A DNA stretch of 64,000 nucleotides from Patescibacteria group bacterium (GTDB lineage: Bacteria; Patescibacteriota; Microgenomatia; 0-14-0-10-38-17): the NCBI GenBank assembly GCA_050953885.1, contig JBMNNJ010000001.1, positions 74,132 to 138,131 of the forward strand, read 5' to 3'. A program made the position numbers and the translations under genes. The notes under the pieces were generated by a model, which worked only from the letters and a program-made list of their open reading frames with translations, had not been told where the DNA came from and made no database searches. Position 1 is the first letter of the stretch, and each line of letters begins with the position of its first letter. Shown here one piece after another: positions 31,364-63,459 of the stretch.

Positions 31364-32659
31364 ATGAAAATTGCGGTTGTGGGCGCCGGTTATGTGGGTT
31401 TAACCTGGGCGGCGGTGCTGGCATCGTTGGGCCATAAGGTTTTTTTGGTGGAAAATAATCAGGAAAAGTTAGCCAAGCTTAAGAAGGGACAGGCGCCTTT
31501 TTTTGAGCCCGGTCTGGAGCCCCTTTTGAAAAAAGGAATTAAGAGCAAGCGGCTTTACCTTTTTTCTTCTCTTAAAAACCTTCGGGAAAAACCGGCGCTG
31601 GTTTTTATTTGTGTCGGCACGCCTTCCCAAAAGGATGGCTCAATTGATCTTTCTTACGTGTTTCAAACAGCCGAAGAGTTGGGGAAAAATCTTTGGCTTG
31701 GCCAGATAACAGTGGCGCTTAAAAGCACCGTTTTGCCGGGGACAACCAAAAAAGTAGGGAAAATTATTAGTCAAAATAAAAGCAAAAAAGCAAATTTTAG
31801 TTTGGCTTTCTGTCCGGAATTTTTAAGAGAAGGAAAGGCAGTTGAAGACACTCTTCACCCCAGCCGCGTTATTATTGGCAGTGAGGACAAAAAGGCTGTT
31901 AGCCTTCTTAAAAAACTTCATGTTCCTTTTGGGGCGCCAATCCTAATGATGAAAATTGAGAGCGCCGAGCTCACCAAGTATGCGGCTAACGCCTATCTTG
32001 CCTTGCGGATTGTTTTTGCCAACCAAATTGCCGATTTGGTTGAGAAAGCAGGAGCGGATGTGGAGGAGGTTATTGCCGGCATTGGACTTGATCCTCGCAT
32101 TGGCACTGGCTACTGGTACCCCGGGCTAGGATATGGCGGCTCTTGTTTTCCCAAAGATGTGGCCGCCTTGGCCTCTTTTGGCGCCAAAGAGGGGTTAAAA
32201 AAGTCGCTTTTTTCTTTTATGCATGATTATAACCAAAGTCGTCCCGAGGAAAAATTAGCGGAGATTGAAGAAAAATGGGGTAGCCCGGCCGGAAAAAAAG
32301 TGGCTGTTTGGGGGCTGGCTTGTAAGCAGGGGACCGATGACGTGCGAGGTTCGGCGGCGCTTTTGGTGGCGGATAAATTATCCCAAAAAGGGGCAATGGT
32401 TTTTGCTTTTGACACCTTGGCGGAAGAAAATGCCCAAAGGGAATGCTCTCGTCTTTATTATTCTCCTGATCCTTATTTGGTAGCCAAAAATGCGGATTGG
32501 CTTTTGGTTTTAAGCGATGATCCTCTTTTTGCTAAGGCTAATTTTAAAAAAGTGAAGGAATTAATGAAGGGAAGGAAAATTTTTGATGCCCGCAATATTT
32601 TACCTAAAGAAAAACTTAAAAAGATGGGTTTTGAATATTTAGGCGTGGGCAGGAGTTAA
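31364..32659 (+). CDS. ugd: UDP-glucose 6-dehydrogenase family
   Basis: N-terminal Rossmann GAGYVG, catalytic GGSCFPKD. Confidence 0.88.
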   Translation: MKIAVVGAGYVGLTWAAVLASLGHKVFLVENNQEKLAKLKKGQAPFFEPGLEPLLKKGIKSKRLYLFSSLKNLREKPALVFICVGTPSQKDGSIDLSYVFQTAEELGKNLWLGQITVALKSTVLPGTTKKVGKIISQNKSKKANFSLAFCPEFLREGKAVEDTLHPSRVIIGSEDKKAVSLLKKLHVPFGAPILMMKIESAELTKYAANAYLALRIVFANQIADLVEKAGADVEEVIAGIGLDPRIGTGYWYPGLGYGGSCFPKDVAALASFGAKEGLKKSLFSFMHDYNQSRPEEKLAEIEEKWGSPAGKKVAVWGLACKQGTDDVRGSAALLVADKLSQKGAMVFAFDTLAEENAQRECSRLYYSPDPYLVAKNADWLLVLSDDPLFAKANFKKVKELMKGRKIFDARNILPKEKLKKMGFEYLGVGRS

Positions 32660-32707
32660 CTTTTATCTTGCTTGTCTTTTTTAAATAATTGTTGTATTTT
32701 AAGATTA

Positions 32708-33877
32708 ATGGTTAAAGAAAAAGCCGTCGTTATCATCCCTACTTATAACGAACGGGAAAACATTGGTCGGATGATTGAAGTTTTGGAAAAAGAAATTTTC
32801 CCGCAGATTAAGGATTGGGAAATGGCCATTTTGGTGGTCGATGACCATTCTCCCGACGGCACGGCCGAGATTGTGCGGGAGAAAATGAAAATTTATCCCA
32901 ACATTGAGCTTTCCTTAGGAGAAAAGCAGGGTTTGGGAGCGGCTTACGCGCGGGGGATGAAATACGCGATGCAAAAAATGAATGCCGATTGGGTGATTGA
33001 GTTTGACGCCGATTTTCAGCACGATCCGGCCTATATTCCTCAGCTTTTAAACGCCGCTAGGCAAGGCTACGATTATGTAGTTGGTTCCCGTTATGTTTCC
33101 GGCGGCAAGGTTCCGCAGGATTGGAATTTTTCCCGCCGCCTCATTAGCTCGTTGGGCAGTTTTGTCGCCCGTTTTATTCTTTTTTTTCCTTTTGAGTTTA
33201 GAAACGCCCCGCGCGATTTAACTTCCGGCCTTAAGGCCACCAAAGTTAAAGGATTTTTGGAGAAAATTGATTTAGACCATCTTCTTTCCAAAGGCTACGC
33301 TTATAAAATTGAGATTTTTTACCGGATGGTAAAGCTGGGAGCAAGGGTAAAAGAGATCCCCATTGAATTTAAAAATCGAGAGAAGGGGGAGTCAAAAATG
33401 CCACCCAAGAATTTAACTGATTCTTTAAAAGTGGTGATAAAATTGCGTCTTCAAGACGAGAAAACGCAAAGCTTTTTAAAATTCGCGGTGGTGGGATTTG
33501 TGGGTTACTTGGTTAACGCTCTTTCTTTGGCGCTTTTTACTTCTTTTTCCTGGCCAGAAGCTCTTTGCTGGCTTTTATCAACCGAGCTGGCGATTATTTC
33601 TAATTTTACCTGGAACAACCTTTGGACTTTTGCTAAAGAAAAGTTTACCAAGCCCTCTTTAGTTTTGAAGAAATTTCTCCAGTTTAACCTTACTTCAGCC
33701 GGAGCCTTAGTTATCCAAACGGTAATGGGTACGCTTTTAACCTCTCTTTTTGGGCCCGAGCATCGCCAGCTTTATCTGCCCCTAATTATTGTTTTTATGG
33801 TTTTGCCATATAACTGGTTGATGTATAATCGGGTAATTTGGAAAGTAGACAAGAAAGGTAAAAAAGAAAAAAAATGA
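32708..33877 (+). CDS. GT2 polyprenol-phosphate sugar synthase (DPM1/GtrB-like) fused to a C-terminal GtrA-like membrane domain
   Basis: VVIIPTYNE ... VVDDHSPDGT ... FDADFQHDP, then FLKFAVVGFVGYLVN ... NFTWNNLWTF. Confidence 0.85.
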   Translation: MVKEKAVVIIPTYNERENIGRMIEVLEKEIFPQIKDWEMAILVVDDHSPDGTAEIVREKMKIYPNIELSLGEKQGLGAAYARGMKYAMQKMNADWVIEFDADFQHDPAYIPQLLNAARQGYDYVVGSRYVSGGKVPQDWNFSRRLISSLGSFVARFILFFPFEFRNAPRDLTSGLKATKVKGFLEKIDLDHLLSKGYAYKIEIFYRMVKLGARVKEIPIEFKNREKGESKMPPKNLTDSLKVVIKLRLQDEKTQSFLKFAVVGFVGYLVNALSLALFTSFSWPEALCWLLSTELAIISNFTWNNLWTFAKEKFTKPSLVLKKFLQFNLTSAGALVIQTVMGTLLTSLFGPEHRQLYLPLIIVFMVLPYNWLMYNRVIWKVDKKGKKEKK

Positions 33878-34293
33878 GTAGTCCGGAAAAACATTTTCCA
33901 GAAAGCCATTATTTTTCTTCCTATCAAGAATATCGTTCTTTTGGTGGGCAGCTTAATGAAGAATTTTTTAACCAAGCGCTTGAGTTTTTGAAAGACGGTC
34001 AACAACTAAAATCTCAGCAGAAAGTTTATATTCAGTCAGAAAGGCACTGTGCTTACCGGGCGGGTGTTATTCCTTCTCCTCAAGAGGAACGCCTTTATGT
34101 TTTCTTAAGAGAACTAATGCCTCCGCCTTCCTCGGTGGAGAAAAAAAGTCAAGATAATAAGGGTTTCCCTTGGCAGTTAGGTGACCATTCTCTTTTAGCA
34201 GAAGTTTTCTTGCTTAATAACAATATCTTTTCTTACCAGCAATTTACAGATTATTTTCCTCATATTTTCAACAAAGAAGAAAAAAGCGGGTAA
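33874..34293 (+). CDS. hypothetical soluble protein (139 aa)
   Basis: ORF only; no family recognised. Confidence 0.35.
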   Translation: MSSPEKHFPESHYFSSYQEYRSFGGQLNEEFFNQALEFLKDGQQLKSQQKVYIQSERHCAYRAGVIPSPQEERLYVFLRELMPPPSSVEKKSQDNKGFPWQLGDHSLLAEVFLLNNNIFSYQQFTDYFPHIFNKEEKSG

Positions 34294-34294
34294 G

Positions 34295-35503
34295 CTAAAG
34301 ATAGGGTGTCCAGTCGCTTATAGACATGGTGTTAAAGCTGATAAAGCTTATGGCGTAAAGAAAAAGAGCCGGTAAAAGAAGAATGAAGGGAATTAAAAAT
34401 TGCTTCTTTTGAAAAAAATTTTCTCCACCTAAGATTAAAAAAGGCAGGGCGGGAATGAGGTAGCGGGCAATGTCGCGATGGGCCACAAAAATGAGGGAAA
34501 AGTAAAAAACAACCGGGAAAATAAAGAGAATATCAGTTTTATATTTTTGCCAAAGGAAAGAAAGAAGAATTCCCCCTAAAAGATAGTAAAGATAAACGTC
34601 TTCGAGCCAAAATGTTCCTACCCATTTCTCATTGAAATCAAAAACCTGAAATGGCGGCCAAAAAAGATGAATGTTGTCGCCGGTTTTAAAATAGGCCCAA
34701 AAATCGCCGGTGGTGATTTTATAGAGAGAGAAAACGCTGATAATGCCCAACGGCGTTAAAAGTATTGGCCAAAACTTCTTTAGTCCCTCTTTAATTTTCT
34801 TCTTATCTTTTAAGAGCGAAGAAGATTTTAAAACTTCAATCAAGCCCGCCAAACCCAGAGCGCCGGCTAAAAGCACCCCCGGGCTTTTAACGGTTTGGGA
34901 AAAAATCGCCATTAAGGCGCTTTTACCATAATTTCCTTTTTTGAAAAAGTAGATGGCGCTGATAATAAAAAACAAAAAAAGCGGTTCGGGGCTGGGAACA
35001 TTTTTAACCACCAACCAGCGGGCGGGGAAAAAGACAAAAAGAGAGGCTAGAAAAAGACTGGCTTTTTGTCTTTTGGTTACCAAGAGAAGGAGTTGGTAAA
35101 AAGCAAAGATAGCCGCAAGACTGGTAAGCTGAGTAACAAAAATGGCCGCATGAGGGAAATCAATTTTAGGAATTTGGGCGGCAAGCCAAATTAGGGCCGG
35201 GTAGGCGGGGAAATGAGCGGGGAAGTAGGCAGGCGGCAGGGTGTTGGGGAAAAGAGCCTCAATTTTTTGAGGATCATACCAAGTTTTGGCCACAATAATA
35301 TAATTCAGGCTGTCAAAATTAAGCAAAACGGTGGAGAAGTTAAATTTTTCCGGGTAGTTTAAGCCGAAAAATGATTCAAGATGAAAAACAAAGGGGAAAT
35401 AAAGAAGGGCGGCGGAAAGAAAAGAAACCAGCGCTAAAGTCCAAAAAGGATGAAGCAGGGCCAACTTGCCAAGGTGGGAAAAGAAATTCTTAATTTTGGC
35501 CAT
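34295..35503 (-). CDS. polytopic membrane protein, GT-C-like (paralog of 55417-56565)
   Basis: Shared N-terminal motif SLNYIIVAKTWY ... FPNT (compare FDGFHYLSIARGGYGY ... FFPLFP in 55417). Confidence 0.5.
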   Translation of the reverse strand: MAKIKNFFSHLGKLALLHPFWTLALVSFLSAALLYFPFVFHLESFFGLNYPEKFNFSTVLLNFDSLNYIIVAKTWYDPQKIEALFPNTLPPAYFPAHFPAYPALIWLAAQIPKIDFPHAAIFVTQLTSLAAIFAFYQLLLLVTKRQKASLFLASLFVFFPARWLVVKNVPSPEPLFLFFIISAIYFFKKGNYGKSALMAIFSQTVKSPGVLLAGALGLAGLIEVLKSSSLLKDKKKIKEGLKKFWPILLTPLGIISVFSLYKITTGDFWAYFKTGDNIHLFWPPFQVFDFNEKWVGTFWLEDVYLYYLLGGILLSFLWQKYKTDILFIFPVVFYFSLIFVAHRDIARYLIPALPFLILGGENFFQKKQFLIPFILLLPALFLYAISFISFNTMSISDWTPYL

Positions 35504-35961: not shown

Positions 35962-37524
35962 ATGGCTAAATATAAAGAAAAATTTCTTCGTTGGGCTCCA
36001 TTTGTCTTACTGGTTTTTCTCTCGGCTTTCCTGCGTTTTTATAAGCTTGAGGATTTAACTACTTTTCTTGATGATCAGGGACGAGATGTTTTAAAAGCGG
36101 CCCAAATTATAAAAGAAAAAGATCTACCGTTTATTGGCCCTTTGGCCTCAATGGGGAATGTTTATTTAGGGCCTCTTTATTACTGGGCGATTACTCCCGT
36201 TCTTTGGCTTTTTGGCTTTAATCCGGTTGGGCCGGTGGTTTTGGTGGCTCTTTTGGGAGTGCTAACCAATATTTTGCTTTTTTTCTTTCTTTGGCGTTAT
36301 TTTGACAAAAAAAGCGCTTTTTTGGCTAGTTTTCTTTACGCTCTTTCGCCTTTAATTTTGCAAAACAGCCGTTTTTCCTGGAACCCCAATCCGGTGCCTC
36401 TTTTTACCCTGCTTTGGTTTCTCTTGATGTTAAAATTTTTTGATGAGGAGAAAGGGCGATGGGCCCTTGGGGCGGGGATTTGCTTGGGGATTCTTCTTCA
36501 GCTTCATTATGTTACCGGCTTGCTTTTATTATTCACCGGGGCGGCTTTATTATTTTGGCTGATTAAGAAAAGCCGCCAAGAAAGTTTTTCCCCAAAACTC
36601 TTGAAACCTTTAGGCTGGTTAATCTTAGGAGTTATTATTCCCCTCATTCCCTTTATTCTTTTTGAATTTAAAAATTATTTTCTTAACACCCGGGCGGCGT
36701 GGCAATTCCTTTTTGACGGTCATAAAGAAGAGCTTTTGGCAGAAAGTTTGTTAAGCCGCGTTTTTGCTTTACTTAATCGTTTTTTTCAGGAACTTTTGGG
36801 TCTTTCCCGCCCTTCCCCTCTGCCGCTGGCTTACTTTATTTTAACCGTTCTTTCTCTTTTCTTTGTGGGAGGGAAAAAATTGGGAAAAGAAAAAAAGAAA
36901 ATAATTTTTTCTTCTGCCGCGATTTTAGTTTTAACGCCGTTTTTGCTTTGTGGGGCGGTTGGGGGCGAAATTCATCTTCATTATATTGGCCTTCTTTATC
37001 CTTTTGTTTTTATTATTGTGGCGGCGGGAGATTATTTATGGCGTCGGGCGCGGTTTTGGCCGTTGGTAATTTTAAATAGCGCTCTTTTGCTTTTGGCCTG
37101 TTACCAAATGGGGAGTTGGGATTATCGGCAAATTATTACCGCTGACAGTAATCATCAGATAGAAAAAGCGAAGCTGACCGCCGAGTACATTAGCCAGGAA
37201 GCGGAGGATAAAAATATTTTCGTCGCTTCCCTCACCGGTTCTCCTTTTGCCTACCCGGCTCGCTATTTTCTTTATCTTCAGGATTTTACCGTCGATTCTT
37301 TACAGCCCTCATCTGTTTTTGCTGTTTGCTATGATCAACCTTGCCAACCGGAGAAAAGCATTCTTTGGGAATTAGCCCAATTTGGGATTTTAAAAACGGT
37401 AAGCGAGAAAGCGCTTCCTTATGGGGTGTGGGTGTATGAATTAAAAACTCAAATGTCAAGCTTAGAACTCAAATCTCAAAACGCAAATGTCAAATCTACA
37501 TGGCAAATGTTAAAACTTTTTTAA
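35962..37524 (+). CDS. polytopic membrane glycosyltransferase-like protein (GT-C; paralog of 62095-63459); last ~25 codons come from an AT-rich repeat element
   Basis: N-terminal motif FLDDQGRDV ... IGPLASMGNVYLGPLYYW; 520 aa. Confidence 0.55.
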   Translation: MAKYKEKFLRWAPFVLLVFLSAFLRFYKLEDLTTFLDDQGRDVLKAAQIIKEKDLPFIGPLASMGNVYLGPLYYWAITPVLWLFGFNPVGPVVLVALLGVLTNILLFFFLWRYFDKKSAFLASFLYALSPLILQNSRFSWNPNPVPLFTLLWFLLMLKFFDEEKGRWALGAGICLGILLQLHYVTGLLLLFTGAALLFWLIKKSRQESFSPKLLKPLGWLILGVIIPLIPFILFEFKNYFLNTRAAWQFLFDGHKEELLAESLLSRVFALLNRFFQELLGLSRPSPLPLAYFILTVLSLFFVGGKKLGKEKKKIIFSSAAILVLTPFLLCGAVGGEIHLHYIGLLYPFVFIIVAAGDYLWRRARFWPLVILNSALLLLACYQMGSWDYRQIITADSNHQIEKAKLTAEYISQEAEDKNIFVASLTGSPFAYPARYFLYLQDFTVDSLQPSSVFAVCYDQPCQPEKSILWELAQFGILKTVSEKALPYGVWVYELKTQMSSLELKSQNANVKSTWQMLKLF

Positions 37525-37863: not shown

Positions 37864-38631
37864 ATGAATAAGAAAGAGGCGGCGATTTTTCTTTCGGTGG
37901 TGATTCCTTGCTATAACGAGGAGGCAAATTTAAAAAGAGGGGTTTTGGGGGAAGTTAACGACTATCTTCAAAAACAAAAATATTCTTGGGAGGTAATCAT
38001 CTCCGATGATGGCTCAACTGATAAAAGCAAGGATTTAGCCGAAAAATTTGCGAAAAGTAATCAGGGCTTTAGGCTTTTGAAAAATCAGCATGGCGGCAAG
38101 CCCTACGCTGTTTGGCAGGGAATTAAGAAGGCGCGGGGACAAATTGTTTTGTTTACCGACATGGATCAGTCCACCCCCATTAGGGAAATAGAAAAGCTTT
38201 TGCCTTATTTTAAGAAAAACTACGACGTAGTGATCGGTTCAAGAGGCTGGAAACGAACCGGCGCCCCTTTCTATCGGCAAATAGCGGCTTTTATTTTCTT
38301 GCAAGTGCGCCGTCTCCTGCTTTTACCGGAAATTATCGACACCCAATGCGGTTTTAAGGCTTTTAAAACTAAAGTGGCTCAAGAGCTTTTTTCCAAACTT
38401 TCGGTTTTGAAAAATTGGCAGGAAGCTTCCGGCTGGCGGGTAACCGCTTTTGATGTAGAGCTTTTGTTTTTGGCCAAGAAAAAGGGCTACCGGATTAAAG
38501 AAGTGCCGGTTTTGTGGCGCGATGAGGATGTGGCTTTGGGAAAAAATAAAAGTTTTGTCAAAGAATCGCGACAAATGCTGGAGCAGATTATAAACGTGCG
38601 TCGTCAGGAACGGCGGGGGGAATACGAATAG
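37864..38631 (+). CDS. GT2 glycosyltransferase, polyprenol-phosphate sugar synthase-like (DPM1/ArnC-like)
   Basis: LSVVIPCYNEE ... ISDDGSTD ... FTDMDQS. Confidence 0.85.
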   Translation: MNKKEAAIFLSVVIPCYNEEANLKRGVLGEVNDYLQKQKYSWEVIISDDGSTDKSKDLAEKFAKSNQGFRLLKNQHGGKPYAVWQGIKKARGQIVLFTDMDQSTPIREIEKLLPYFKKNYDVVIGSRGWKRTGAPFYRQIAAFIFLQVRRLLLLPEIIDTQCGFKAFKTKVAQELFSKLSVLKNWQEASGWRVTAFDVELLFLAKKKGYRIKEVPVLWRDEDVALGKNKSFVKESRQMLEQIINVRRQERRGEYE

Positions 38632-43482: not shown

Positions 43483-43495
43483 TAAGACAATTTCT

Positions 43496-48323: not shown

Positions 48324-48372
48324 TAATCTAATTATTATATATAATATTATTTCAATTCATTAAATAATATCA

Positions 48373-49437: not shown

Positions 49438-49441
49438 ATAA

Positions 49442-50353: not shown

Positions 50354-50399
50354 AAATAATAAACGGTAATTGTTTTTTATGATGAAAATTAAAGTCAAA

Positions 50400-50710: not shown

Positions 50711-50728
50711 TCTTATTCGTTTTGGTTC

Positions 50729-56728: not shown

Positions 56729-57505
56729 ATGACTCTTTCCGTTGCTTTAGCCACCTATAATGAGGAGAAAAATTTGCCTTCTTGCCTTGAAGCGGTGAAA
56801 GATTGGGTAGAGGAGATTGTTGTTGTTGACGGTTCCTCAACGGACAAAACGCGGGAAATTGCCCAAAAATATGGAGCGCGGGTGATTAAAACCACCAACA
56901 AACCGATTTTCCATATTAACAAGCAAATGGCCATTGACGCCTGCCGCGGCGACTGGATTCTTCAGTTAGACGCTGATGAAATTGTGGAACCGGCCTTGAA
57001 AAAAGAAATTTTGGCCGTAATTAAAAAGGGCAGTGACTTTGACGCTTTTTCCCTACCCCGTAAAAACTTTTTTTTGGGCCGTTGGCTTTCAAAAGGGGGG
57101 CAGTATCCCGACACGGTGATCAGATTTTTCAAAAAAGGTAAGGCCTTTTTGCCCTGCCAATCGGTTCATGAACAAATGATGGTTCCATCGGGAAAAATAG
57201 GCAATCTTTCCGGTCATCTTCTCCATTATCCCTATCCAAGTTTTAATGAATATTTGGTAAAATTTAACCGTTATACCGATTTAACCGCCGCAGAATATCT
57301 TAAAAACCCAAAAATAAAACCAAATTTTTGGTATTATTTAAAATCGGAAGCGCAAGGAACAGGGGCATTTTTAGCCCGCTACCTACGCCACAAAGGCTTT
57401 GTTGATGGCTTTGCGGGTTTTGTTTTCGCTCTTTTTTCAGGTCTTCATTATCCGGTGGCGTTTATTAAGTATTGGGAAAAAAGATATGAAAGAAAAAAAG
57501 ACTAA
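56729..57505 (+). CDS. GT2 glycosyltransferase (GGQYPD subfamily)
   Basis: LSVALATYNEE ... LQLDADE ... GGQYPDTVIRFF. Confidence 0.8.
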   Translation: MTLSVALATYNEEKNLPSCLEAVKDWVEEIVVVDGSSTDKTREIAQKYGARVIKTTNKPIFHINKQMAIDACRGDWILQLDADEIVEPALKKEILAVIKKGSDFDAFSLPRKNFFLGRWLSKGGQYPDTVIRFFKKGKAFLPCQSVHEQMMVPSGKIGNLSGHLLHYPYPSFNEYLVKFNRYTDLTAAEYLKNPKIKPNFWYYLKSEAQGTGAFLARYLRHKGFVDGFAGFVFALFSGLHYPVAFIKYWEKRYERKKD

Positions 57506-59225
57506 AAAAGCCGTCCCCTCTTGGTTTATCTTATTAATAATTTTAGCGGTGGCCGGTTTTTTCCGTTTTGTTGGTTTAGATCAAATACCACCGGGAATTA
57601 ATGTCGATGAAAGCGCGATTGGCTATAACGCTTACTCAATTAAAGAAGCAGGTATTGACGAATGGGGCAAGAAATATCCCACCGTTTTTTTATCCTATGG
57701 CGACAGTAAGCCGCCGGGGTTAATTTATGCAGTGGCGCTTTTGCTTAACTTTTTTCCTCCCTCGGTAATGGTGGTTCGTCTGCCATCGGCAATTGCCGGT
57801 TTTTTGGCTATTATAGGCATTTATTTTTTAGTCAAAGAATTTTTTCCAAAAGATAAGCTTTTGCCTCTTTTGGGAGCGGCAATTTTTGCCTTTTCCCCCG
57901 TGTTTTTCCAAGTTAGTCGCTTTTTTTACGAAAGTAACGTGGCCAATACTTTTTTTATTTTCGGCTTGCTTTTTCTTTTAAGGTCTATCAATGAAAAGAA
58001 AATTCCTAAAGGGAACAAAAATATTATTTTGGCAATTATTTTTTTGGGGTTATCCGGTTACTTTTATATTGCCCACCGCGTTATTTCTTTGGCGGTCTTC
58101 TTTTTAACAATCTTGTTTTTTCTTCTCAAAAAGAGCATTTCTTTTAAGAAAGGCTGCCTTTTAGCACTTCTTTATCTTCTTTTAACCCTGCCTATTTTTT
58201 GGCAATTTTTTACCGGTTCGGGGCTTAAAAGGTTAAGCCAAGAAGGGGAATTAGTTAATTTTGGCGCGGAGTTAACGATTAATGAAAGAAGGGGTCTTTG
58301 TTACTTATCAAGCAATAAAAATCCAATAATAACGAAGGCTTGTTATCTTTTTTGGAATAAGCCGCTCTCAAGAATTCAAAGCACGGCCGCTTCGTTTTTA
58401 AAACATTTTTCGATTGATTTTTTATTTGTTGAGGGGACTAATAGTGTTGATCGGTCAGTTTCCGGCTATGGGCCATTTCTATTTATCTTTATTCCTTTTT
58501 ATTTAGTTGGCCTTTTTATTTTAGTTTGGCAATCAATTAATGATCGTCGTAAACTGGCTCTTCTTGTCCTTGCCGGAGCGGTTATTGCTTCTCTCCCGAG
58601 CGTTGCTTCCTCCCAACCGACAGAACATCGCGCCCTGCCGTTTTTTATTTTCATTTTTCTTATTGTTCTTTTTGGGCTGAAATTTTTTTTCTCGCTTTTT
58701 GAAAAAAAGGGGAAATTTTTAGTTTTTCTTGCTTTAATTTTAATTTTTCTTTTTAGCACTACTCGTTATTTAACCGACTACTTTTTGATTCATACTAAGA
58801 ATAACGATTCTTTGTTTCGTCCCGATATCCCGGTGGTAATGGCTTATATTGCTGAAAGAGAACAAAATTACGACCGAGTCCTTTTTAATGATTATCGGGA
58901 GGATGCTCTTTTGGCTTTAGCCTTTTTAAATCAATTTGATCCTACTTATTTTGTTCAGAATGTCAAAAGAAGCGATCCAAATCAATATGGTTGGACTTTT
59001 CCAATTAAGCTGGGTAAATATGAACGAGGAAATTTTGATATTAACCAACTTTTAGCTGATTATGATTTTAAAGAGGACGGTCGGATCCTTCTTGTAACTA
59101 CTCCTCTTTCTCAAAAAAATTATTATCAAGCCGCTTCTTTAAGAATTTTCGATCGTCATCAGGTTCATTGTCTCACGGAAATTTATGACATTGGGGAGTT
59201 GAAGAAAACATTAGAAAAAGAGTAA
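57486..59225 (+). CDS. ArnT/PMT-like GT-C membrane glycosyltransferase
   Basis: FFRFVGLDQIPPGINVDESAIGYNAYSI. Start at MKEKKTKK. Confidence 0.65.
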   Translation: MKEKKTKKAVPSWFILLIILAVAGFFRFVGLDQIPPGINVDESAIGYNAYSIKEAGIDEWGKKYPTVFLSYGDSKPPGLIYAVALLLNFFPPSVMVVRLPSAIAGFLAIIGIYFLVKEFFPKDKLLPLLGAAIFAFSPVFFQVSRFFYESNVANTFFIFGLLFLLRSINEKKIPKGNKNIILAIIFLGLSGYFYIAHRVISLAVFFLTILFFLLKKSISFKKGCLLALLYLLLTLPIFWQFFTGSGLKRLSQEGELVNFGAELTINERRGLCYLSSNKNPIITKACYLFWNKPLSRIQSTAASFLKHFSIDFLFVEGTNSVDRSVSGYGPFLFIFIPFYLVGLFILVWQSINDRRKLALLVLAGAVIASLPSVASSQPTEHRALPFFIFIFLIVLFGLKFFFSLFEKKGKFLVFLALILIFLFSTTRYLTDYFLIHTKNNDSLFRPDIPVVMAYIAEREQNYDRVLFNDYREDALLALAFLNQFDPTYFVQNVKRSDPNQYGWTFPIKLGKYERGNFDINQLLADYDFKEDGRILLVTTPLSQKNYYQAASLRIFDRHQVHCLTEIYDIGELKKTLEKE

Positions 59226-59245: not shown

Positions 59246-60349
59246 ATGGGAAAAATTAAAGTGGGGATTGATATTTCTCCTCTTAAAAATGCCAACCGTT
59301 TTCGAGGGGTAGGTTTTTATACAAAGAATTTAGTGGAATCGTTACAGAGTCTAATAAAAGAAAACAAAAAATACTCAAATTGGCAAATAAACTTAATTGA
59401 AAATTGGAAATTGGAAATTGGAAATTTTGATTTGTTTCATTACCCTTATTTTGATATTTTTTTTCCTACTCTTCCCAAAAAAAAGAATATCCCCACAGTG
59501 GTGACGGTTCATGACTTAACGCCCTTGGTTTTTCCCGAGCATTACCCGGCGGGAGTACGAGGGAAAATTAATTGGTTGCGGCAAAAAAGAAACCTAAAAA
59601 AAACCGAGGCAATTATCACCGATTCCCAAAAATCAAAGCAGGACATTGTTAAAATTGTCGGTTATCCTGAAAAGAGGGTTCATGTGGTCTACTTAGCCCC
59701 TTCTTTTGACCCTAAAAAATTTAAAACTGAAAATTTAAAATTGAAAATTAAACAAAAGTATCATCTTCCTGATAATTTTGTTTTGTATGTGGGTGATGTT
59801 AATTGGAATAAAAATCTCCCCGGTTTGGTGAAAGCTTGCCGAAAAATAGGTATTCCTTTGGTGATTGTGGGTAAGCAGGCGGTGAGCAAAGATTATGACC
59901 AAACCCATCCGGAAAATCAGGGCTTGGTTTGGTTGCAAAGGGAAGCAGAAAAATCTAAATTGCTAAAACGCGATCACTCTAAGTCTCTGCTTTTATTAGG
60001 CTTTGTTGAGGAAGAAGACTTGGCGGCTTTATATAATTTAGCCACTCTTTATTGCCAGCCTTCATTTTATGAAGGCTTTGGCATGCCGGTGGTGGAAGCC
60101 ATGGCCGGCGGTTGCCCGGTGGTTTGCTCTAATCAAGGATCGTTACCAGAAATTGGCGGCCAAGCAGTTGCTTATTTTGATCCTTATAAGAAAGGCAATT
60201 TGGAAAAAGTTTTAAAAAAGGTTTGGGAAGATAAAAATTTAAGGCAAGAACTTGCCCAAAAAGGCTTAGCCCAAGCCAAAAAATTTTCCTGGCCAAAATG
60301 CGCCCAAGAAACACTTAATGTTTATCAGAAGATTTTAGATAATTCATAA
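59246..60349 (+). CDS. GT4 (group 1) glycosyltransferase
   Basis: EGFGMPVVEAMAGGCPVVCSN. Confidence 0.82.
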   Translation: MGKIKVGIDISPLKNANRFRGVGFYTKNLVESLQSLIKENKKYSNWQINLIENWKLEIGNFDLFHYPYFDIFFPTLPKKKNIPTVVTVHDLTPLVFPEHYPAGVRGKINWLRQKRNLKKTEAIITDSQKSKQDIVKIVGYPEKRVHVVYLAPSFDPKKFKTENLKLKIKQKYHLPDNFVLYVGDVNWNKNLPGLVKACRKIGIPLVIVGKQAVSKDYDQTHPENQGLVWLQREAEKSKLLKRDHSKSLLLLGFVEEEDLAALYNLATLYCQPSFYEGFGMPVVEAMAGGCPVVCSNQGSLPEIGGQAVAYFDPYKKGNLEKVLKKVWEDKNLRQELAQKGLAQAKKFSWPKCAQETLNVYQKILDNS

Positions 60350-60371: not shown

Positions 60372-62117
60372 ATGAAAAAGGAAACATTTTTTTTAAAAAC
60401 CAAAAAAATTCTTCCTGTCATCTTAATTTTGCTTTTAGGAGCTTATTGTTCGAAAGGCCTTTTTACTTATCATTTTTTTAGCACTCATGACGGCGACCAT
60501 CATCTTGCTCGTAGTTATGATGCCGTAAAGACGCTTTCGGAAGGACATTTTCCGCTTCGTTGGGCGGGTAGTTTAAATTATTTCTGCGGGATTCCTATTT
60601 TTAATTTTTTCTACCCCCTTTTTTACTATTTAATTTTTCTGGTTAATCTTTTAGTTGGCGATATTATTTTCTCGCTAAAAATCGTTTATGTTTTAAGCTT
60701 TACGCTTGCTCCTTTGTTTTTTTATCTTTGGCTAAAGAGGGAGACTAAGAACCCCATCGCCTCACTTTTAGGGGCGATACTTTATCTTTTTGTTCCCTAT
60801 CGTTTCTTGCTTGTTTTTGTTCGCTCCAGTCCCGAATTTATGGCTTATACGATTTTACCGGTTTTTTTATATCTTTTAAGTATTTTCTTTGAAAAAATTA
60901 AGAAAAAAGAAAGAAACGCTGCTTACCTTTTTGGCTTTTTAACTTCTCTTTCGGGAGCGGCTTTAATTACCGCTCATCAATTAATAGCCTTTTTGCTCTT
61001 TCCGATTATTTTTTTATGGTTTGTAATAAAAACTTGGCAAACAAAAGTTTACAAGCAAAAAGTTAATTTTTTATGGCTTATTTTTTTAACGGCGGTATCT
61101 ATTGTTGGCTTGAGCGCTTTTTTTTGGGGACCGGTTTTTTTAGAAAAAGGGGAAGTTAAAATCGGAGAGTTGGAGGTTATTAGCTACTGGCAACATTTTC
61201 CTTCTTTAAAACAATTAATTCATTCCCCCTGGGGTTACTTTTATTCCGCTCCCGGTGTTGAAAATGATGGCATGTCTTTTTCCTTAGGTTATGCACAATG
61301 GGCGGTTTTGGGGTTGTCGGGAATTTGGTTGGTAATTAAGGCGGTAAAAACAGGACTTCTTAAAACAATGAGAGAAAATTTTGGAGTGCTATTTTTCTTT
61401 TTAATCTCTGTTTTCGCTCTTTTTCTGATGCTTGAACAATCTAGGTTTGTTTGGGAGCTATTTGTTTTATTGCAAGAAGTTCAGTTTCCTTGGCGTTTTT
61501 TGGGAGTAACCTCTTTTACTATTGCTGCCTTAGGGGGGTTTTGGTTAACACAGATTGGCAACAAAAAAATTGTTTATGCTTTGGCAATATTAATTTCTTT
61601 TTTGGCAATCTATGGTAATCGCAACCATCTTCTCCCCCAACCCTTAGCAGAACCAGAAAGATACGAAGATTTTGAGAGGCTACATCCCCATCGGTATAGC
61701 ACGACTACTCTTGGAGATGATATTCTTAATAGAGAAGCCGAAAAGGCATGTTATTTTGGTGACCCTTTTCTTTTAGTTAATAAAGAAAAAATTGAAAATA
61801 AACTTAATCGGGGCAATACTTTTGGAGAGGTTTACTTTAAATGGCCCCAGCAAGAAGCAAGTGCAACAATTAATCTTAATTTAGAATACTTTCCCGGGAT
61901 CTATAAAATTAAGATCAATGGAGAAGAAATAAAAAAAATCAGCAATTTTTCAGGAAGAATAGCTTTAGAAGAGATTTCTTTAAAAGAAGGGGAAAATGTT
62001 ATTAGCTGGCAAATCGTCCAGTCGCCAATTGAGCGGTTTTTTAATGGTGTTAGCTTGGGTTTTTTAGTCCTTTGGTTGATTTTAATACCAATCTATGAAA
62101 TTAAAAGGAAAGCTTAA
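60372..62117 (+). CDS. large polytopic membrane protein, GT-C-like (YfhO-like family; paralog of 40164 and 50729 C-terminal half)
   Basis: FFSTHDGDHHLARS ... FPLRWAG ... GIPIFNFFYPLFYY. Confidence 0.5.
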   Translation: MKKETFFLKTKKILPVILILLLGAYCSKGLFTYHFFSTHDGDHHLARSYDAVKTLSEGHFPLRWAGSLNYFCGIPIFNFFYPLFYYLIFLVNLLVGDIIFSLKIVYVLSFTLAPLFFYLWLKRETKNPIASLLGAILYLFVPYRFLLVFVRSSPEFMAYTILPVFLYLLSIFFEKIKKKERNAAYLFGFLTSLSGAALITAHQLIAFLLFPIIFLWFVIKTWQTKVYKQKVNFLWLIFLTAVSIVGLSAFFWGPVFLEKGEVKIGELEVISYWQHFPSLKQLIHSPWGYFYSAPGVENDGMSFSLGYAQWAVLGLSGIWLVIKAVKTGLLKTMRENFGVLFFFLISVFALFLMLEQSRFVWELFVLLQEVQFPWRFLGVTSFTIAALGGFWLTQIGNKKIVYALAILISFLAIYGNRNHLLPQPLAEPERYEDFERLHPHRYSTTTLGDDILNREAEKACYFGDPFLLVNKEKIENKLNRGNTFGEVYFKWPQQEASATINLNLEYFPGIYKIKINGEEIKKISNFSGRIALEEISLKEGENVISWQIVQSPIERFFNGVSLGFLVLWLILIPIYEIKRKA

Positions 62118-63459
62118 TTGGTCTTGCCTAACTTTGTTGGCAGTTTTGGTTATTTTTCTTTTTCTTCGTTTTTACCAACTGCCCCAACGAACCATTTTTA
62201 ATTGGGATCAGGAAAGGGATGCTTTTGAAGTGCAAAAAATTCTTTCTGGCGACCCAAGCCTTATCGGCCCGCGTGTTTTGGGGCCGCAAGGGTTTTTCTT
62301 AGGCCCTTATTTTTACTATCTTTTAGCGCCATTTTATTTCCTCACCGGCGGCCACCCCCAAGCGATTGTTTATTTCCTAATCGTCTTGAACCTTGTTTTT
62401 TTCTTGGCCGCCTATTTGATTGTTAAAAAAATCTGGGGAGAAAAAACCGCCCTAATCTTTCTTTTTCTTTGGACGATTAATCCGGCGGCAATAGAAACGG
62501 TGGCCTGGAATCCGACCCTAATCCCCTTAATGATTATTTTAATCTGGTTTACCCTTTCTCAAAAAAGTTATTTTTGGTTGGGCTTAAGCCTTTCTTTGGC
62601 GATTAATTTCCATTTTCAGGCAGTTTTTTTGGCGCCTTTTATTTTACTTTTTTTGTTTTGGCAAAGAGAGCTTTCGGGAAAAAATTTAGGCAAAGCGGCG
62701 TTGGGATTTTTTTTACCCTTTATTCCCTTGCTTCTTTTTGACTTACGACATAACTTCTTAAATTTTAAGCTTTTGGGGCAGTTTATAAAAGAGCGAGGCG
62801 AGGGGGGCAATTTTTTGGCTTGGCGGCCGGTGCTGGCTAATTTTTTAACTGGCTTTTGGGGGGAGGAAAAAATTTGGCTCCCCTTGACTTTAGCGCTTGT
62901 TCTTTTAACCCTGTGGCTTGTTAAAAAGCAAAAAAATTATTTTTCCAAAAACTTTCTTAAAAGTCTTCTTTTTCTTTACCCCATTGTTTTGTTGGGTTTT
63001 AGCATTTATGGCCAAAGACCGTCGGAATATTATTTTAATTTTCTTTTACCCTTTTTTATTTTAGTTTTGGCCTTATTTATCAGCTCTTTTGGCAAATTAA
63101 AACGGCTGTTTTTTTTGCTTCTTTTTATTCTTCTCTGGTTGCCAAAAACGATGGAAAAAACCGTTCCTGTTTCGGTTAGTTTGTTGGCGAAAGACAAAGC
63201 AATTGCTTATTTGGTAGAAAAAAACGGGAAAATACCGGCGGAAGTTCGCTATCAAACTCCTTTAGGCGAGGAAGCAGGTTTTTCCTATTTGCTAAATTAC
63301 TACGGCTTGGAAAAAGCGACCGAAGGAGAAAGAAAAATCTGGCTGGTAAGCATTCCGCCGGCAGAAGAAAGCCAAGCTTTTGGTGGAGTGGGAGTAAAAT
63401 TAATAGGAGAGGAAAAAAATTTGCTTATTAACAACGATTCTGAATCAAGTTCAGAATGA
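62095..63459 (+). CDS. polytopic membrane glycosyltransferase-like protein (paralog of 35962); stop codon supplied by a repeat element
   Basis: FNWDQERDAFEV ... IGPRVLGPQGFFLGPYFYY. Confidence 0.5.
   Translation: MKLKGKLNWSCLTLLAVLVIFLFLRFYQLPQRTIFNWDQERDAFEVQKILSGDPSLIGPRVLGPQGFFLGPYFYYLLAPFYFLTGGHPQAIVYFLIVLNLVFFLAAYLIVKKIWGEKTALIFLFLWTINPAAIETVAWNPTLIPLMIILIWFTLSQKSYFWLGLSLSLAINFHFQAVFLAPFILLFLFWQRELSGKNLGKAALGFFLPFIPLLLFDLRHNFLNFKLLGQFIKERGEGGNFLAWRPVLANFLTGFWGEEKIWLPLTLALVLLTLWLVKKQKNYFSKNFLKSLLFLYPIVLLGFSIYGQRPSEYYFNFLLPFFILVLALFISSFGKLKRLFFLLLFILLWLPKTMEKTVPVSVSLLAKDKAIAYLVEKNGKIPAEVRYQTPLGEEAGFSYLLNYYGLEKATEGERKIWLVSIPPAEESQAFGGVGVKLIGEEKNLLINNDSESSSE

What the first reader, a model, noticed from the sequence alone, without database searches (positions are those of the whole stretch)
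31364..63459. About 32-kb surface glycosylation island with expanded GT-C paralog families
The island runs from ugd to the last GT-C gene. It contains 9 GT2, 2 GT4, a GtrA-fused DPM1-like synthase, a Wzx-like flippase, a SAM methyltransferase and about 11 polytopic GT-C-like proteins in paralog families: 35962/62095; 38669; 53718/57486; 40164/50729C/60372; 34295/55417; 42025. Most repeat clusters and both in-ORF repeat insertions are concentrated here. This is the profile of a hypervariable cell-surface glycan locus (S-layer or lipoglycan) diversifying by duplication, fusion and repeat-mediated rearrangement. In a tiny genome this investment is notable.
Basis: inference. Interest (0 to 1): 0.5.

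Follow-up and report, generated by a model that had tools for sequence, protein, structure and literature searches.

The report
Conserved GT-C-rich envelope glycan gene supercluster
This stretch of an ultra-small Candidatus Shapirobacteria (CPR) genome is a real, very large cell-surface sugar-building gene cluster with eleven membrane GT-C glycosyltransferases, but it is an old, conserved, purifying-selected core feature of the lineage rather than a hypervariable island.

Summary

The organism is a Candidatus Shapirobacteria (Microgenomates, CPR). The "hypervariable, duplicating island" reading is mostly not supported:
- Paralogs are only 25-37% identical, and most have their own collinear ortholog (43-75%) in other species.
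- The gene order persists in loci whose flippase is only 50% and 41% identical.
- dN/dS against a ~92%-identical relative is 0.08-0.21.
- Repeats are no denser here than in the rest of the window.

There is real modular turnover: GT-C genes gained or lost, domain deletions, fusions and fissions, and an in-frame repeat element in a GT2 loop that differs between close relatives. The cluster also extends beyond both stated borders.

The most likely function is a multi-component transmembrane glycosylation network that builds a complex envelope glycan or glycoprotein coat.

The parts
21765..22502 (+). Sugar-1-phosphate nucleotidyltransferase (RmlA-like).
   Evidence: Pfam NTP_transferase, E 1.8e-54.
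25624..28085 (+). rmlB (25624-26640), rmlC (26641-27213) and rmlD (27195-28085): the dTDP-L-rhamnose pathway.
   Evidence: Pfam GDP_Man_Dehyd/Epimerase E 9.5e-79, dTDP_sugar_isom E 2.8e-72, RmlD_sub_bind E 4.3e-47.
28082..29116 (-). PAP2 phosphatase, undecaprenyl-diphosphatase-like. Likely lipid-carrier recycling.
   Evidence: Pfam PAP2 E 3.1e-17. Best NCBIfam match is the SepP/undecaprenyl-diphosphatase models, below cutoff.
31364..32659 (+). UDP-glucose 6-dehydrogenase (ugd).
   Evidence: All three UDPG_MGDP_dh domains, E 1e-54 / 3e-31 / 4e-21.
32672..33877 (+). DPMS-type polyprenyl-phosphate hexose synthase: a GT2 catalytic domain plus a GtrA/DPMS transmembrane domain.
   Evidence: Pfam Glycos_transf_2 E 1.6e-27 and GtrA_DPMS_TM E 8.5e-17. 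Near full-length phmmer match to Pyrococcus DPMS 5mlz, E 1.7e-46, residues 17-357.
33874..34293 (+). 139-aa soluble protein of unknown function.
   Evidence: No Pfam hit at E<=1 and no TM segment.
34295..35503 (-). GT-C-like polytopic protein (PIG-V/GT87-like group). The only island gene on the minus strand.
   Evidence: About 6 TM segments. Blastp 7e-7 to 55366. Shares the invariant NFD...A...Y motif with 55366 orthologs. No Pfam hit and no structure model, so this is the weakest of the 11.
35962..37524 (+). GT-C (PMT_2 type), paralog of 62095. The last ~25 codons read into a repeat element.
   Evidence: PMT_2 E 1.4e-12. Orthologs at 48-52% identity in L007, L009 and L010. Repeat copies at 37443-37522.
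37864..38631 (+). Small GT2 of the polyprenyl-phosphate-sugar synthase type (DPM1/GtrB/ArnC/GacI-like, with no TM domain). The most conserved gene of the cluster.
   Evidence: Best PDB sequence matches are DPMS 2.2e-15, GtrB 6.2e-15 and ArnC 4e-12. Best NCBIfam matches are PgfS, ArnC and Dol-P-hexose transferase, below cutoff. Orthologs at 72-75% identity.
38669..40180 (+). GT-C (PMT/PMT_2 type).
   Evidence: PMT_2 E 6e-6 and PMT E 1.3e-4. 'CDE' motif after TM1. Orthologs at 54-55% identity.
40164..41849 (+). GT-C (PTPS_related/YfhO-like type), paralog of 50729C and 60372.
   Evidence: PTPS_related E 4e-6 and PMT_2 E 1.2e-5 over the same region. Blastp 4e-52 to 50729C. 'HDD' motif after TM1.
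42025..43482 (+). Divergent GT-C with no Pfam family, immediately upstream of Wzx in L007, L009 and L010 (truncated in L013).
43496..44995 (+). Wzx/MOP-family flippase.
   Evidence: Polysacc_synt_3 E 4.4e-61, Polysacc_synt and MurJ. Homologs at 67-70% identity are named Candidatus Shapirobacteria.
44961..45893 (+). GT2 (DADE type), paralog of 46880 and 56729. It is the surviving C-terminal half of a GT2-GT2 fusion that is intact in relatives.
   Evidence: Glycos_transf_2 E 9e-12. Relatives encode 525-538 aa, of which only residues ~234 onward align. L013 carries ~696 bp that are missing here.
45886..46887 (+). GT2, rhamnosyltransferase-like.
   Evidence: Glycos_transf_2 E 5.8e-19. Best NCBIfam match is the TIGR01556 rhamnosyltransferase subfamily, 68 bits, below cutoff.
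46880..47653 (+). GT2 (DADE type).
   Evidence: Glycos_transf_2 E 2.5e-21. The N-terminal half matches GmaR 9.3e-19 and SunS 1.8e-8.
47640..48323 (+). SAM-dependent methyltransferase. The start is set by ortholog alignment; the listed ORF opens at 47598.
   Evidence: Methyltransf_11 E 1.1e-10. The L013 ortholog aligns from residue 15.
48373..49437 (+). GT4 glycosyltransferase.
   Evidence: Glycos_transf_1 E 4.7e-21. Orthologs at 56-58% identity.
49442..50353 (+). GT2.
   Evidence: Glycos_transf_2 E 1.2e-20 and Glyco_tranf_2_3 E 5e-17.
50729..53323 (+). 864-aa fusion of a cytoplasmic GT-A (GT2) domain with a GT-C module (PTPS_related/YfhO-like), followed by a beta-sandwich and a C-terminal TM helix.
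50875..50953 (+). In-frame copy of an intergenic hairpin repeat inside GT2 loop 1 of the fusion protein (approx. residues 50-75).
   Evidence: Repeat family D3, with copies at 24208, 50466, 53464 and 63433. Extra residues relative to orthologs. The model is low-confidence there, pLDDT 49-62. L013 carries a longer in-frame copy.
53718..55400 (+). GT-C (PMT/PMT_2 type), paralog of 57486.
   Evidence: PMT_2 E 4.7e-10 and PMT E 2.5e-7. 'WDE' motif after TM1. Orthologs at 62-65% identity.
55417..56565 (+). GT-C (PIG-V/GT87-like).
   Evidence: Mannosyl_trans2, 25.5 bits against a cutoff of 22.4, and GT87 weak. NFD motif.
56729..57505 (+). GT2 (DADE type).
   Evidence: Glycos_transf_2 E 5.5e-23. Orthologs at 73-75% identity in L012 and L014.
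57486..59225 (+). GT-C (PMT_2 type). The ATG at 57486 is the likely start.
   Evidence: PMT_2 E 2e-10. Blastp 3e-40 to 53718. The gene is called as 579 aa on the identical contig.
59246..60349 (+). GT4 glycosyltransferase.
   Evidence: Glycos_transf_1 E 4e-28 and Glyco_transf_4 E 5e-12. Ortholog at 58% identity in L012.
60372..62117 (+). GT-C (PTPS_related/DUF6541 type). Overlaps 62095 by 23 nt.
   Evidence: PTPS_related E 4.1e-7. Fused to a 62095-like GT-C in a 1064-aa protein of L016, at 50% and 41% identity.
62095..63459 (+). GT-C (PMT_2 type). The stop codon lies inside a repeat element.
   Evidence: PMT_2 E 4e-6. 'WDQERD' motif after TM1. The repeat begins at 63433.

Best explanation
This is a vertically inherited cell-envelope glycan or glycoconjugate biosynthesis supercluster, conserved across Microgenomates and here in a Candidatus Shapirobacteria genome. 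It most likely works as an enlarged 'multi-component transmembrane glycosylation' network.

1. Precursors (shown at family level). RmlA-like, RmlB, RmlC and RmlD upstream make dTDP-rhamnose, and Ugd makes UDP-glucuronate.
2. Cytoplasmic assembly (inferred). Six free-standing GT2 enzymes, two GT4 enzymes and a methyltransferase build a lipid-linked oligosaccharide on the cytoplasmic face. A Wzx-type flippase moves it outward.
3. Lipid-linked donors (family shown, sugar inferred). Two polyprenyl-phosphate-sugar synthases make lipid-linked monosaccharide donors. One is the full DPMS-type enzyme at 32672, with its own GtrA/DPMS membrane domain. The other is the small GacI/DPM1-like GT2 at 37864. 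The donors reach the outer face through the GtrA-type domain or a Wzx-type flippase.
4. Outer-face transfer (fold shown, substrates inferred). Eleven GT-C enzymes in the window, and a twelfth just beyond it, each carry an acidic motif after TM1. They use these lipid-linked donors outside the membrane to extend, branch or transfer the glycan onto a wall polymer, lipid anchor or surface protein.

The many-GT-Cs-per-donor logic resembles mycobacterial LM/LAM and arabinogalactan assembly. One enzyme, 50729, joins a cytoplasmic GT-A domain and an outward-facing GT-C module in one polypeptide.

Evolution is by slow modular gain, loss, fusion and fission on a conserved backbone under purifying selection.
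For: Donor synthases:
- 32672 matches DPMS 5mlz at E 1.7e-46 over its full length.
- 37864 matches DPMS, GtrB and ArnC at about 1e-15.

GT-C fold, shown for the two hardest cases:
- Acidic motifs follow TM1 in all 11 proteins.
- These residues are invariant in two family alignments: D34/D35 and D350.

Conservation:
- Collinear orthologs at 43-75% identity in L007/L012, L009, L010 and L014.
- The backbone persists at 50% and 41% flippase identity in L015 and L016.
- dN/dS is 0.08-0.21.

Known logic: GT-A C55-P-sugar synthase + GtrA- or Wzx-type flippase + GT-C with a DxD-like motif is described in PMC8035078.
Against: - No priming phosphoglycosyltransferase (Bac_transf or MraY/WecA type), Wzy polymerase, ligase or chain-length regulator was found in the window or among the genes called downstream. 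The Wzx-dependent branch is therefore incomplete as seen.
- No acceptor is identified.
- Sugar specificities are unknown, and all NCBIfam matches are below cutoff.
- 34295 is assigned to GT-C only by weak transitive evidence.
- Nothing here shows expression or activity.
Confidence: 0.7

Rival explanations
1. General protein glycosylation machinery. The PMT_2/PMT-type and STT3-like GT-Cs O-mannosylate or en-bloc glycosylate S-layer proteins, pilins and other secreted proteins. The Wzx-flipped oligosaccharide would be transferred by the Wzx-adjacent 42025 GT-C, acting as an oligosaccharyltransferase.
For: - Six proteins hit PMT_2 or PMT.
- The best Foldseek hits for 42025 are STT3 and PglB. It abuts or overlaps Wzx in L007 and L009.
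- No Wzy or ligase is present in the window.
- The GT2 trio 44961/46880/56729 is closest to the protein and peptide glycosyltransferases GmaR and SunS.
- Secreted-type proteins (LTD and CAP domains) lie at 16-21 kb.
- The Pgf and GtrB/GT-C protein O-glycosylation systems of streptococci use the same parts (papers listed).
Against: - 42025 lacks the large periplasmic domain of PglB and STT3. It has only ~65 C-terminal residues outside the membrane.
- The GmaR and SunS matches cover only the nucleotide-binding half of the domain.
- PMT_2 is also the commonest family among polymer-modifying GT-Cs (Table 2 of PMC8035078).
- Eleven GT-Cs are far more than known bacterial protein-glycosylation systems need.
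Confidence: 0.2
2. One reading: a hypervariable surface-antigen island diversifying rapidly by recent duplication, fusion and repeat-mediated rearrangement. The driver would be, for example, phage or host pressure.
For: - Gene content differs between species: the MptA_B-type GT-C, extra PMT_2 genes, and the 55366/57399/60372/62095 block.
- There are two domain-scale deletions between ~92%-identical lineages.
- An in-frame repeat loop of variable length sits in the fusion GT2.
- Possible structural variants exist among near-identical contigs: the L003 inverted junction, the L001 break inside GT2 49442 at a repeat, and +A changes in A6 and A7 runs of GT4 48373.
Against: - Paralogs are 25-37% identical and most have separate orthologs, so the duplications are old.
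- Collinearity holds down to 41% flippase identity.
- dN/dS is 0.08-0.21.
- Repeat density is equal inside and outside the island.
- The deletion endpoints examined do not coincide with repeat clusters.
- Contigs from several metagenomes are 99.7-100% identical across the locus.
- The contig-end and homopolymer variants could be assembly or sequencing artefacts.
Confidence: 0.12
3. A classical Wzx/Wzy O-antigen or capsule cluster in which most 'GT-C' proteins are really polymerases, ligases or unrelated transporters.
For: A Wzx flippase and many cytoplasmic GT2/GT4 enzymes are present. Relatives L009 and L014 carry a Wzy_C-like 500-aa protein (30.3 bits, just below the cutoff).
Against: - No Wzy_C hit is found in the window.
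- Both modelled proteins match the STT3/AglB, ArnT, PMT, ALG and Aft enzymes and not transporters. MFS transporters appear only at Foldseek probability <0.25.
- No priming PGT or chain-length regulator is present.
- CPR bacteria are not known to have an outer membrane or lipid A (background knowledge).
Confidence: 0.05

Closest known systems
Multi-component (three-component) transmembrane glycosylation systems of Gram-positive bacteria: CsbB/GtcA/YfhO, GtlA/GtlB, L. lactis CsdAB/CD/EF, S. pyogenes GacI/J/K/L (review PMC8035078)
   Same: The parts list matches:
- a GT-A (GT2) enzyme making a polyprenyl-phosphate sugar;
- a GtrA-type or Wzx-type flippase;
- a polytopic GT-C (PMT_2, YfhO-like or family-less) with an acidic loop motif that transfers the sugar outside the membrane.

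The block 37864 (small GT2 without TM) ... Wzx mirrors GacI ... GacK ... GacL. Rhamnose-pathway genes lie nearby, as in the Gac and Rgp clusters.
   Different: Known systems pair one GT-A with one GT-C, and they decorate a polymer made elsewhere. Here two or three donor synthases sit with 11-12 GT-Cs in one 30-40-kb collinear cluster. One GT-C is fused to a GT-A domain that looks like a glycan-extending transferase rather than a GtrB type. No acceptor polymer pathway (TagF, LtaS or an ABC exporter) is seen.
Mycobacterial and corynebacterial LM/LAM and arabinogalactan assembly (Ppm1 plus the GT-Cs PimE, MptA/B/C, EmbA-C, AftA-D)
   Different: - The genes are clustered rather than scattered.
- No MptA_B-type gene is present in this window, and my own Pfam run did not reproduce that hit.
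- No decaprenyl-phospho-arabinose pathway is present.
- The organism is a <1 Mb CPR bacterium, unrelated to Actinobacteria.
Archaeal-type dolichyl-phosphate mannose synthase (Pyrococcus furiosus DPMS, PDB 5mlz; PMC5526996)
   Same: 32672 aligns over catalytic, interface and TM regions (E 1.7e-46, residues 17-357 against 24-342). It has the same GT2 + GtrA/DPMS-TM architecture.
   Different: It is bacterial, so the carrier is presumably undecaprenyl or another bacterial polyprenol. Sugar specificity is untested.
Wzx/Wzy-dependent O-antigen, capsule and EPS gene clusters
   Same: A Wzx flippase flanked by GT2/GT4 genes, a methyltransferase and nucleotide-sugar genes (rml, ugd).
   Different: No Wzy, WaaL, PCP or initiating phosphoglycosyltransferase is found in 64 kb. 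GT-C enzymes dominate.
Rickettsia palindromic elements (RPE) inserted in frame into protein genes (recalled from memory, not tested)
   Same: A short hairpin-forming intergenic repeat is found in frame in a surface loop of an otherwise conserved enzyme (50875-50953). The loop is low-confidence in the model, and its length varies between close relatives.
   Different: The repeat families and the phylum are different. Only one clear case is seen in this window. Mobility has not been shown.

Membership tests
Multi-component transmembrane glycosylation system (GT-A + flippase + GT-C) | A GT-A (GT2) enzyme of the polyprenyl-phosphate-sugar synthase type | tested here: met
   32672 matches DPMS 5mlz at E 1.7e-46 over its full length. 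37864 matches DPMS, GtrB and ArnC at 2e-15 to 4e-12. The match is at family level only; the product has not been shown.
Multi-component transmembrane glycosylation system (GT-A + flippase + GT-C) | A GtrA-type or Wzx-type flippase candidate | tested here: met
   GtrA_DPMS_TM domain in 32672, E 8.5e-17. Wzx (Polysacc_synt_3), E 4.4e-61. A second flippase lies just beyond the window.
Multi-component transmembrane glycosylation system (GT-A + flippase + GT-C) | A polytopic GT-C-fold transferase with a DxD-like acidic motif in the first extracytoplasmic loop | tested here: met
Multi-component transmembrane glycosylation system (GT-A + flippase + GT-C) | Transfer of the lipid-linked sugar to an extracytoplasmic acceptor polymer or protein | not testable with these tools
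   This needs biochemistry or genetics. No acceptor was identified.
Wzx/Wzy-dependent polysaccharide pathway | Wzx flippase | tested here: met
Wzx/Wzy-dependent polysaccharide pathway | Wzy polymerase or O-antigen-ligase-type protein | tested here: not met
   No Wzy_C or O-antigen polymerase hit in any window ORF of >=100 aa. Relatives L009 and L014 carry a 500-aa protein with Wzy_C at 30.3 bits, below the 31.7 cutoff.
Wzx/Wzy-dependent polysaccharide pathway | Initiating phosphoglycosyltransferase (WbaP/PglC or WecA/MraY type) | tested here: not met
   No Bac_transf or Glycos_transf_4 hit in the window or in the 10 kb downstream on L017. It could be encoded elsewhere in the genome.
Mycobacterial-type LM/LAM GT-C network | MptA/MptB-family GT-C mannosyltransferase | tested here: not met
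   The relatives' 377-382-aa gene between the 37864 and 38669 orthologs (precomputed PF26314) has no counterpart in the window. My own Pfam scan of L007:4197-5330 gave no hit.
Mycobacterial-type LM/LAM GT-C network | A polyprenyl-phosphate-mannose synthase feeding several GT-C paralogs | tested here: inconclusive
   A DPMS-type enzyme is present together with 11 GT-Cs, but the sugar and the donor-to-enzyme pairing are unknown.
Horizontally acquired genomic island | Atypical composition, mobility genes or tRNA borders, and patchy distribution among relatives | tested here: not met
   GC is 0.35-0.42 inside against 0.37-0.47 outside, with no step. The only tRNA is at 1502. No integrase was found. 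The locus is collinear in all seven related loci examined.
Phase-variable glycosyltransferase locus (homopolymer slippage) | Length-polymorphic homopolymer or simple-repeat tracts in GT genes that switch the reading frame within a population | tested here: inconclusive
   L001 (99.7% identical) has +A in an A6 run and an A7 run of GT4 48373, and L002 has +G in 42025. Each is a single contig without read support, so sequencing error cannot be excluded.

The most novel reading that the evidence does not exclude
Microgenomates may build a lineage-defining, mycobacterium-like complex extracytoplasmic glycan or glycoprotein coat. The machinery would be a single inherited 40-60-kb supercluster in which a dozen GT-C enzymes share two or three lipid-linked donors. 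It would include enzymes not described experimentally: a GT-A::GT-C fusion that couples a cytoplasmic step and an outside step in one polypeptide, and GT-C::GT-C fusions. Species-specific glycan structure would be tuned by module swapping and by in-frame insertion of genomic hairpin repeats into enzyme loops. This coat could be the surface that mediates episymbiotic attachment.
Probability: 0.2. Interest if true: 0.6.

Novelty: new variant of a known kind. Interest (0 to 1): 0.36.

Why it matters
CPR/Patescibacteria make up a large share of bacterial diversity, and those cultivated so far live attached to other cells, yet their envelope chemistry is almost unknown. This locus, with its extensions, takes up roughly 5% of a genome of about 0.7-1 Mb (genome size estimated from relatives' contigs). 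It is conserved across Microgenomates under purifying selection. That marks a complex surface glycan as a core trait rather than an accessory one.

The locus also gives concrete targets for biochemistry and for cryo-ET or glycomics of enrichments:
- the DPMS-type synthase;
- the Wzx-coupled family-less GT-C;
- the GT-A::GT-C fusion family.

Full-text searches of the held paper library found no paper that combines Patescibacteria or CPR with GT-C terms. However, all the parts belong to known enzyme families and known pathway logic, so the advance is in scale and architecture, not in kind.

Tried and rejected
1. Genome-contig scan with the flippase. It returned only two distant, irrelevant loci (Gallionellaceae, Eubacteriales). 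The exact-peptide patterns were too specific, so it gave no taxonomy. Taxonomy came instead from source names on homologs.\n2. Sequence search of PDB with 42025. It gave only a weak match to Ig lambda V domains (8e-6, residues 400-462), judged to be chance.\n3. Sequence search of PDB with 55417. It gave nothing. The folds had to be tested by structure prediction.\n4. NCBIfam naming of the GT2/GT4 enzymes. No model reached its cutoff, so no sugar specificity can be assigned.\n5. CsbB::YfhO 'Rosetta stone' reading of the 50729 fusion. I weakened it because the GT-A domain is structurally nearer to GlfT2, TarP and RmlT than to GtrB, DPMS or ArnC.\n6. 'GtrA fusion' as a novelty. Rejected: it is the native DPMS architecture.\n7. 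Repeat-like segments in GT4 59246 as insertions. Rejected by ortholog alignment.\n8. Repeat enrichment in the island. Rejected.\n9. Rfam scan of the window. It found only tRNA-Glu.\n10. Literature searches for CPR, Patescibacteria, Microgenomates or Shapirobacteria together with GT-C, glycosylation or S-layer terms. No relevant paper was found.

Full report
**What is in the sequence**

The window is about 40% GC and almost entirely coded on the + strand. Between 31364 and 63459, Pfam confirms the following:
- UDP-glucose dehydrogenase (31364);
- a GT2 + GtrA/DPMS-TM protein (32672);
- seven further GT2 domains (37864, 44961, 45886, 46880, 49442, the N-terminal third of 50729, and 56729);
- two GT4 genes (48373, 59246);
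- a Methyltransf_11 enzyme (47598);
- a Wzx/MOP flippase (43496).

Eleven polytopic proteins with roughly 6-11 hydrophobic segments are candidates for GT-C:
- Six hit PMT_2 or PMT: 35962, 38669, 40164, 53718, 57399 and 62095.
- Three hit PTPS_related: 40164, 50729C and 60372.
- One hits PIG-V/GT87: 55366.
- Two have no Pfam family: 34295 on the minus strand, and 42025.

My GT2 count is 8 domains, not 9 plus the fused one.

**Fold tests for the uncertain members**

The 42025 family is small, with 65 homolog clusters, a few of which carry PMT_2 hits.
- With a 48-sequence alignment, AlphaFold2 gives pLDDT 93.3.
- Foldseek's top 17 PDB hits are STT3, PglB, AglB, ArnT and DPY19.
- D34 and D35, just after TM1, are invariant.
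- hhalign places them on the HDG/QDD motif of the fusion family, at 89% probability.

The 864-aa 50729 protein models at pLDDT 87.4.
- The model ends with a beta-sandwich (773-831) and a last TM helix (835-863). This resembles the extracytoplasmic carbohydrate-binding domains that PMC8035078 notes for the larger GT-Cs AftD and (potentially) YfhO.

34295 is tied in only by blastp to 55366 (7e-7) and a shared NFD...A...Y motif. It is the least secure of the 11.

**Donor synthases**

- 32672 matches Pyrococcus DPMS (5mlz) at E 1.7e-46 across catalytic and membrane regions. The 'GtrA fusion' is therefore the native DPMS architecture, not a novelty.
- 37864 has no TM domain and is the most conserved gene in the cluster (72-75% identity). 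It matches DPMS, GtrB and ArnC at about 1e-15.
- The best sub-threshold NCBIfam hits for 37864 are PgfS, ArnC and Dol-P-hexose transferase.
- The trio 44961/46880/56729 resembles GmaR and SunS only in the nucleotide-binding half.
- 45886 is nearest to a rhamnosyltransferase subfamily, below cutoff.

**Context and true extent**

Upstream of the island lie an RmlA-like nucleotidyltransferase, rmlB, rmlC, rmlD and a PAP2 undecaprenyl-diphosphatase-like gene, at 21.7-29.1 kb. They are interleaved with RtcB, TrmD and HIT.

The window is 100% identical to a 114-kb JGI contig, L017. Beyond the window end that contig carries another GT2, a CofD-family protein, a methyltransferase, an epimerase/dehydratase, a second Polysacc_synt flippase and a 545-aa PMT_2 GT-C. 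The stated borders are therefore not natural borders.

No priming phosphoglycosyltransferase, Wzy, ligase or chain-length regulator was found.

**Who it is**

Flippase homologs at 67-70% identity are named Candidatus Shapirobacteria. Those at about 50% are named Woesebacteria or Microgenomates. A GTDB-representative scan found no close relative.

**Is it hypervariable?**

Related loci were fetched through flippase and fusion homologs and mapped by blastp.

Three other Shapirobacteria species (L007/L012, L009, L010) share a collinear order, with orthologs at 43-75% identity (the methyltransferase excepted, see below). L014 overlaps only the downstream half, from 45886 on, and is collinear there with 55366 and 53718 transposed. 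The shared order is:

35962 / 37864 / 38669 / 40164 / 42025 / Wzx / 44961 / 45886 / 46880 / GT4 / MT / 49442 / fusion / 53718 / 56729 / GT4

The same backbone is recognisable in L015 (flippase 50% identical, 965-kb contig) and L016 (41%).

The duplications are therefore ancient and the cluster is inherited.

Against the ~92%-identical relative L013, NG86 dN/dS is 0.08-0.21 for ten genes. It is 0.49 for the remnant of 42025 that L013 has truncated.

Variation is modular:
- The window lacks an MptA_B-flagged GT-C and a PTPS-like GT-C that relatives carry.
- The window has lost ~696 bp, the N-terminal GT2 of a GT2-GT2 fusion.
- L013 has lost 550 bp of 42025.
- L009, L010 and L014 have extra PMT_2 genes.
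- In L007 and L009 the methyltransferase follows the GT4 instead of preceding it and is only 25-27% identical to 47598.
- L009 has a free GT2 followed by a Wzy_C-like gene at the position where the window has the fusion; L014 has both that pair and the fusion.
- L012 lacks 55366, 57399, 60372 and 62095 at the equivalent site.
- L016 encodes 60372-like and 62095-like GT-Cs as one 1064-aa protein.

The GT2::GT-C fusion family has about 50 full-length clusters. All named ones are Patescibacteria. GT2::PMT_2 and GT2::PIG-V variants also exist.

**Repeats**

Short hairpin-rich repeat families occupy nearly every long spacer in the whole window. Repeat-covered bases are 900 outside the island against 819 inside, so they are not concentrated here. 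They fold strongly (z = -6.9 for 50405-50615) and match no Rfam family.

One copy, at 50875-50953, lies in frame in loop 1 of the fusion's GT2 domain.
- It adds residues relative to more distant orthologs.
- It is low-confidence in the model.
- In L013 it is longer, containing an in-frame copy of the intergenic unit found at 50506-50598.
- Other lineages carry their own repeat-like 'QNSKFK' strings in the same loops.

The 3' ends of 35962 and 62095 read into repeats. The repeat-like strings in GT4 59246 are not insertions.

**Population variants**

Contigs from several metagenomes are 99.7-100% identical to the window. Exceptions are:
- +A in A6 and A7 runs of GT4 48373, and a break into a repeat inside GT2 49442, both in L001;
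- +G in 42025, in L002;
- an inverted junction in L003.

None has read support here, so they remain unresolved.

**Mechanism**

The parts fit the multi-component transmembrane glycosylation scheme: a GT-A polyprenyl-phosphate-sugar synthase, a GtrA- or Wzx-type flippase, and a GT-C with a DxD-like loop (PMC8035078). Here it is scaled up so that many GT-Cs share few donors, as in mycobacterial LM/LAM and arabinogalactan assembly. It is combined with a cytoplasmic GT2/GT4/methyltransferase assembly line and Wzx export.

- Shown: families, folds, motifs, synteny and selection regime.
- Inferred: sugars (rhamnose, glucuronate, and a hexose on the lipid carrier), donor-to-enzyme pairings, and the acceptor.

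**Verdict**

The cluster is real and unusually GT-C-rich, but it is conserved. It is a new variant of a known kind, of moderate interest. The 'hypervariable island' interpretation is only partly supported.

Noticed in passing
window 1582-1669, 3745-4049, 11310-11375, 23964-25615, 30719-30960, 35582-35917, 37443-37731, 50397-50738, 53402-53603, 63427-63634: Several families of short hairpin-forming (REP/MITE-like) repeats fill most long intergenic spacers on both strands. Examples are TCCGCCAGCTGGCGGA, GATTCTGAATCAAGTTCAGAATGACGC, CGTCATCCTGACGAAAGTCAGGATC and AAATTCAAAAGT-type strings. The 50405-50615 stretch folds with z = -6.9. No Rfam family matches. Nearly all differences between 99.7%-identical contigs fall inside these repeats.
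   Followed up: partly
window 50875-50953; L013 9623-9817: An intergenic repeat unit lies in frame in a GT2 surface loop of the fusion enzyme. The ~92%-identical relative has a longer in-frame copy (893 against 864 aa). More distant orthologs carry other repeat-like strings ('QNSKFK') in the same two loops. This recalls Rickettsia palindromic elements.
   Followed up: partly
L016 285-3479: A distant relative (flippase 41% identical) encodes a single 1064-aa protein joining a 60372-like GT-C (50% identity) and a 62095-like GT-C (41%). In the window these two genes overlap by 23 nt. This suggests the pair works together.
   Followed up: partly
L017 11748-20735 (same contig, beyond window end): The glycosylation region continues past the window. 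It holds a GT2 (256 aa), a CofD-family protein, a methyltransferase, an NAD-dependent epimerase/dehydratase, a second Polysacc_synt flippase on the minus strand and a 545-aa PMT_2 GT-C.
   Followed up: partly
L003 1-547 joined to 538-7654 (window 41156-40610 inverted | 43372-50487): A Logan contig identical to the window (apart from one extra base next to the junction) joins an inverted piece of GT-C 40164 to the 3' end of 42025, at a 6-nt microhomology (CCCCGC). It is either a real inversion or deletion variant in that sample, or a chimeric assembly.
   Followed up: partly
window 49101, 49282, 50096 (compared with L001); 42648 (compared with L002): A 99.7%-identical contig has +A in A6 and A7 runs of GT4 48373, which splits the gene. 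It also leaves GT2 49442 at codon ~219 for a repeat element at its contig end. Another contig has +G inside 42025. Phase variation, pseudogenisation and sequencing error cannot be told apart here.
   Followed up: partly
window 6286-8262 (-): A 658-aa protein combines a MiaB/RimO-like radical-SAM methylthiotransferase (UPF0004 + Radical_SAM) with a C-terminal DNA_alkylation repair (AlkD-like) domain. This is an unusual fusion.
   Followed up: no
window 43222-43410 (42025 residues 400-462): The small C-terminal domain of the 42025 GT-C gives a weak phmmer match to immunoglobulin lambda V domains (best E 8e-6, the others >0.01), around a 'YFCQNYD' string. It is probably chance.
   Followed up: no
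window 16374-21323: Probable secreted or surface proteins lie upstream: a Lamin-tail-domain protein (16374), a 497-aa protein with no significant Pfam match (18923) and a CAP-domain protein (20433). They are possible glycosylation targets but are not linked by any evidence.
   Followed up: no
L009 20118-21512; L014 5657-7159: Some relatives carry a 500-aa Wzy_C-like (O-antigen polymerase or ligase-like) gene next to a free GT2 related to the fusion's GT2 domain. The window has no such gene.
   Followed up: partly
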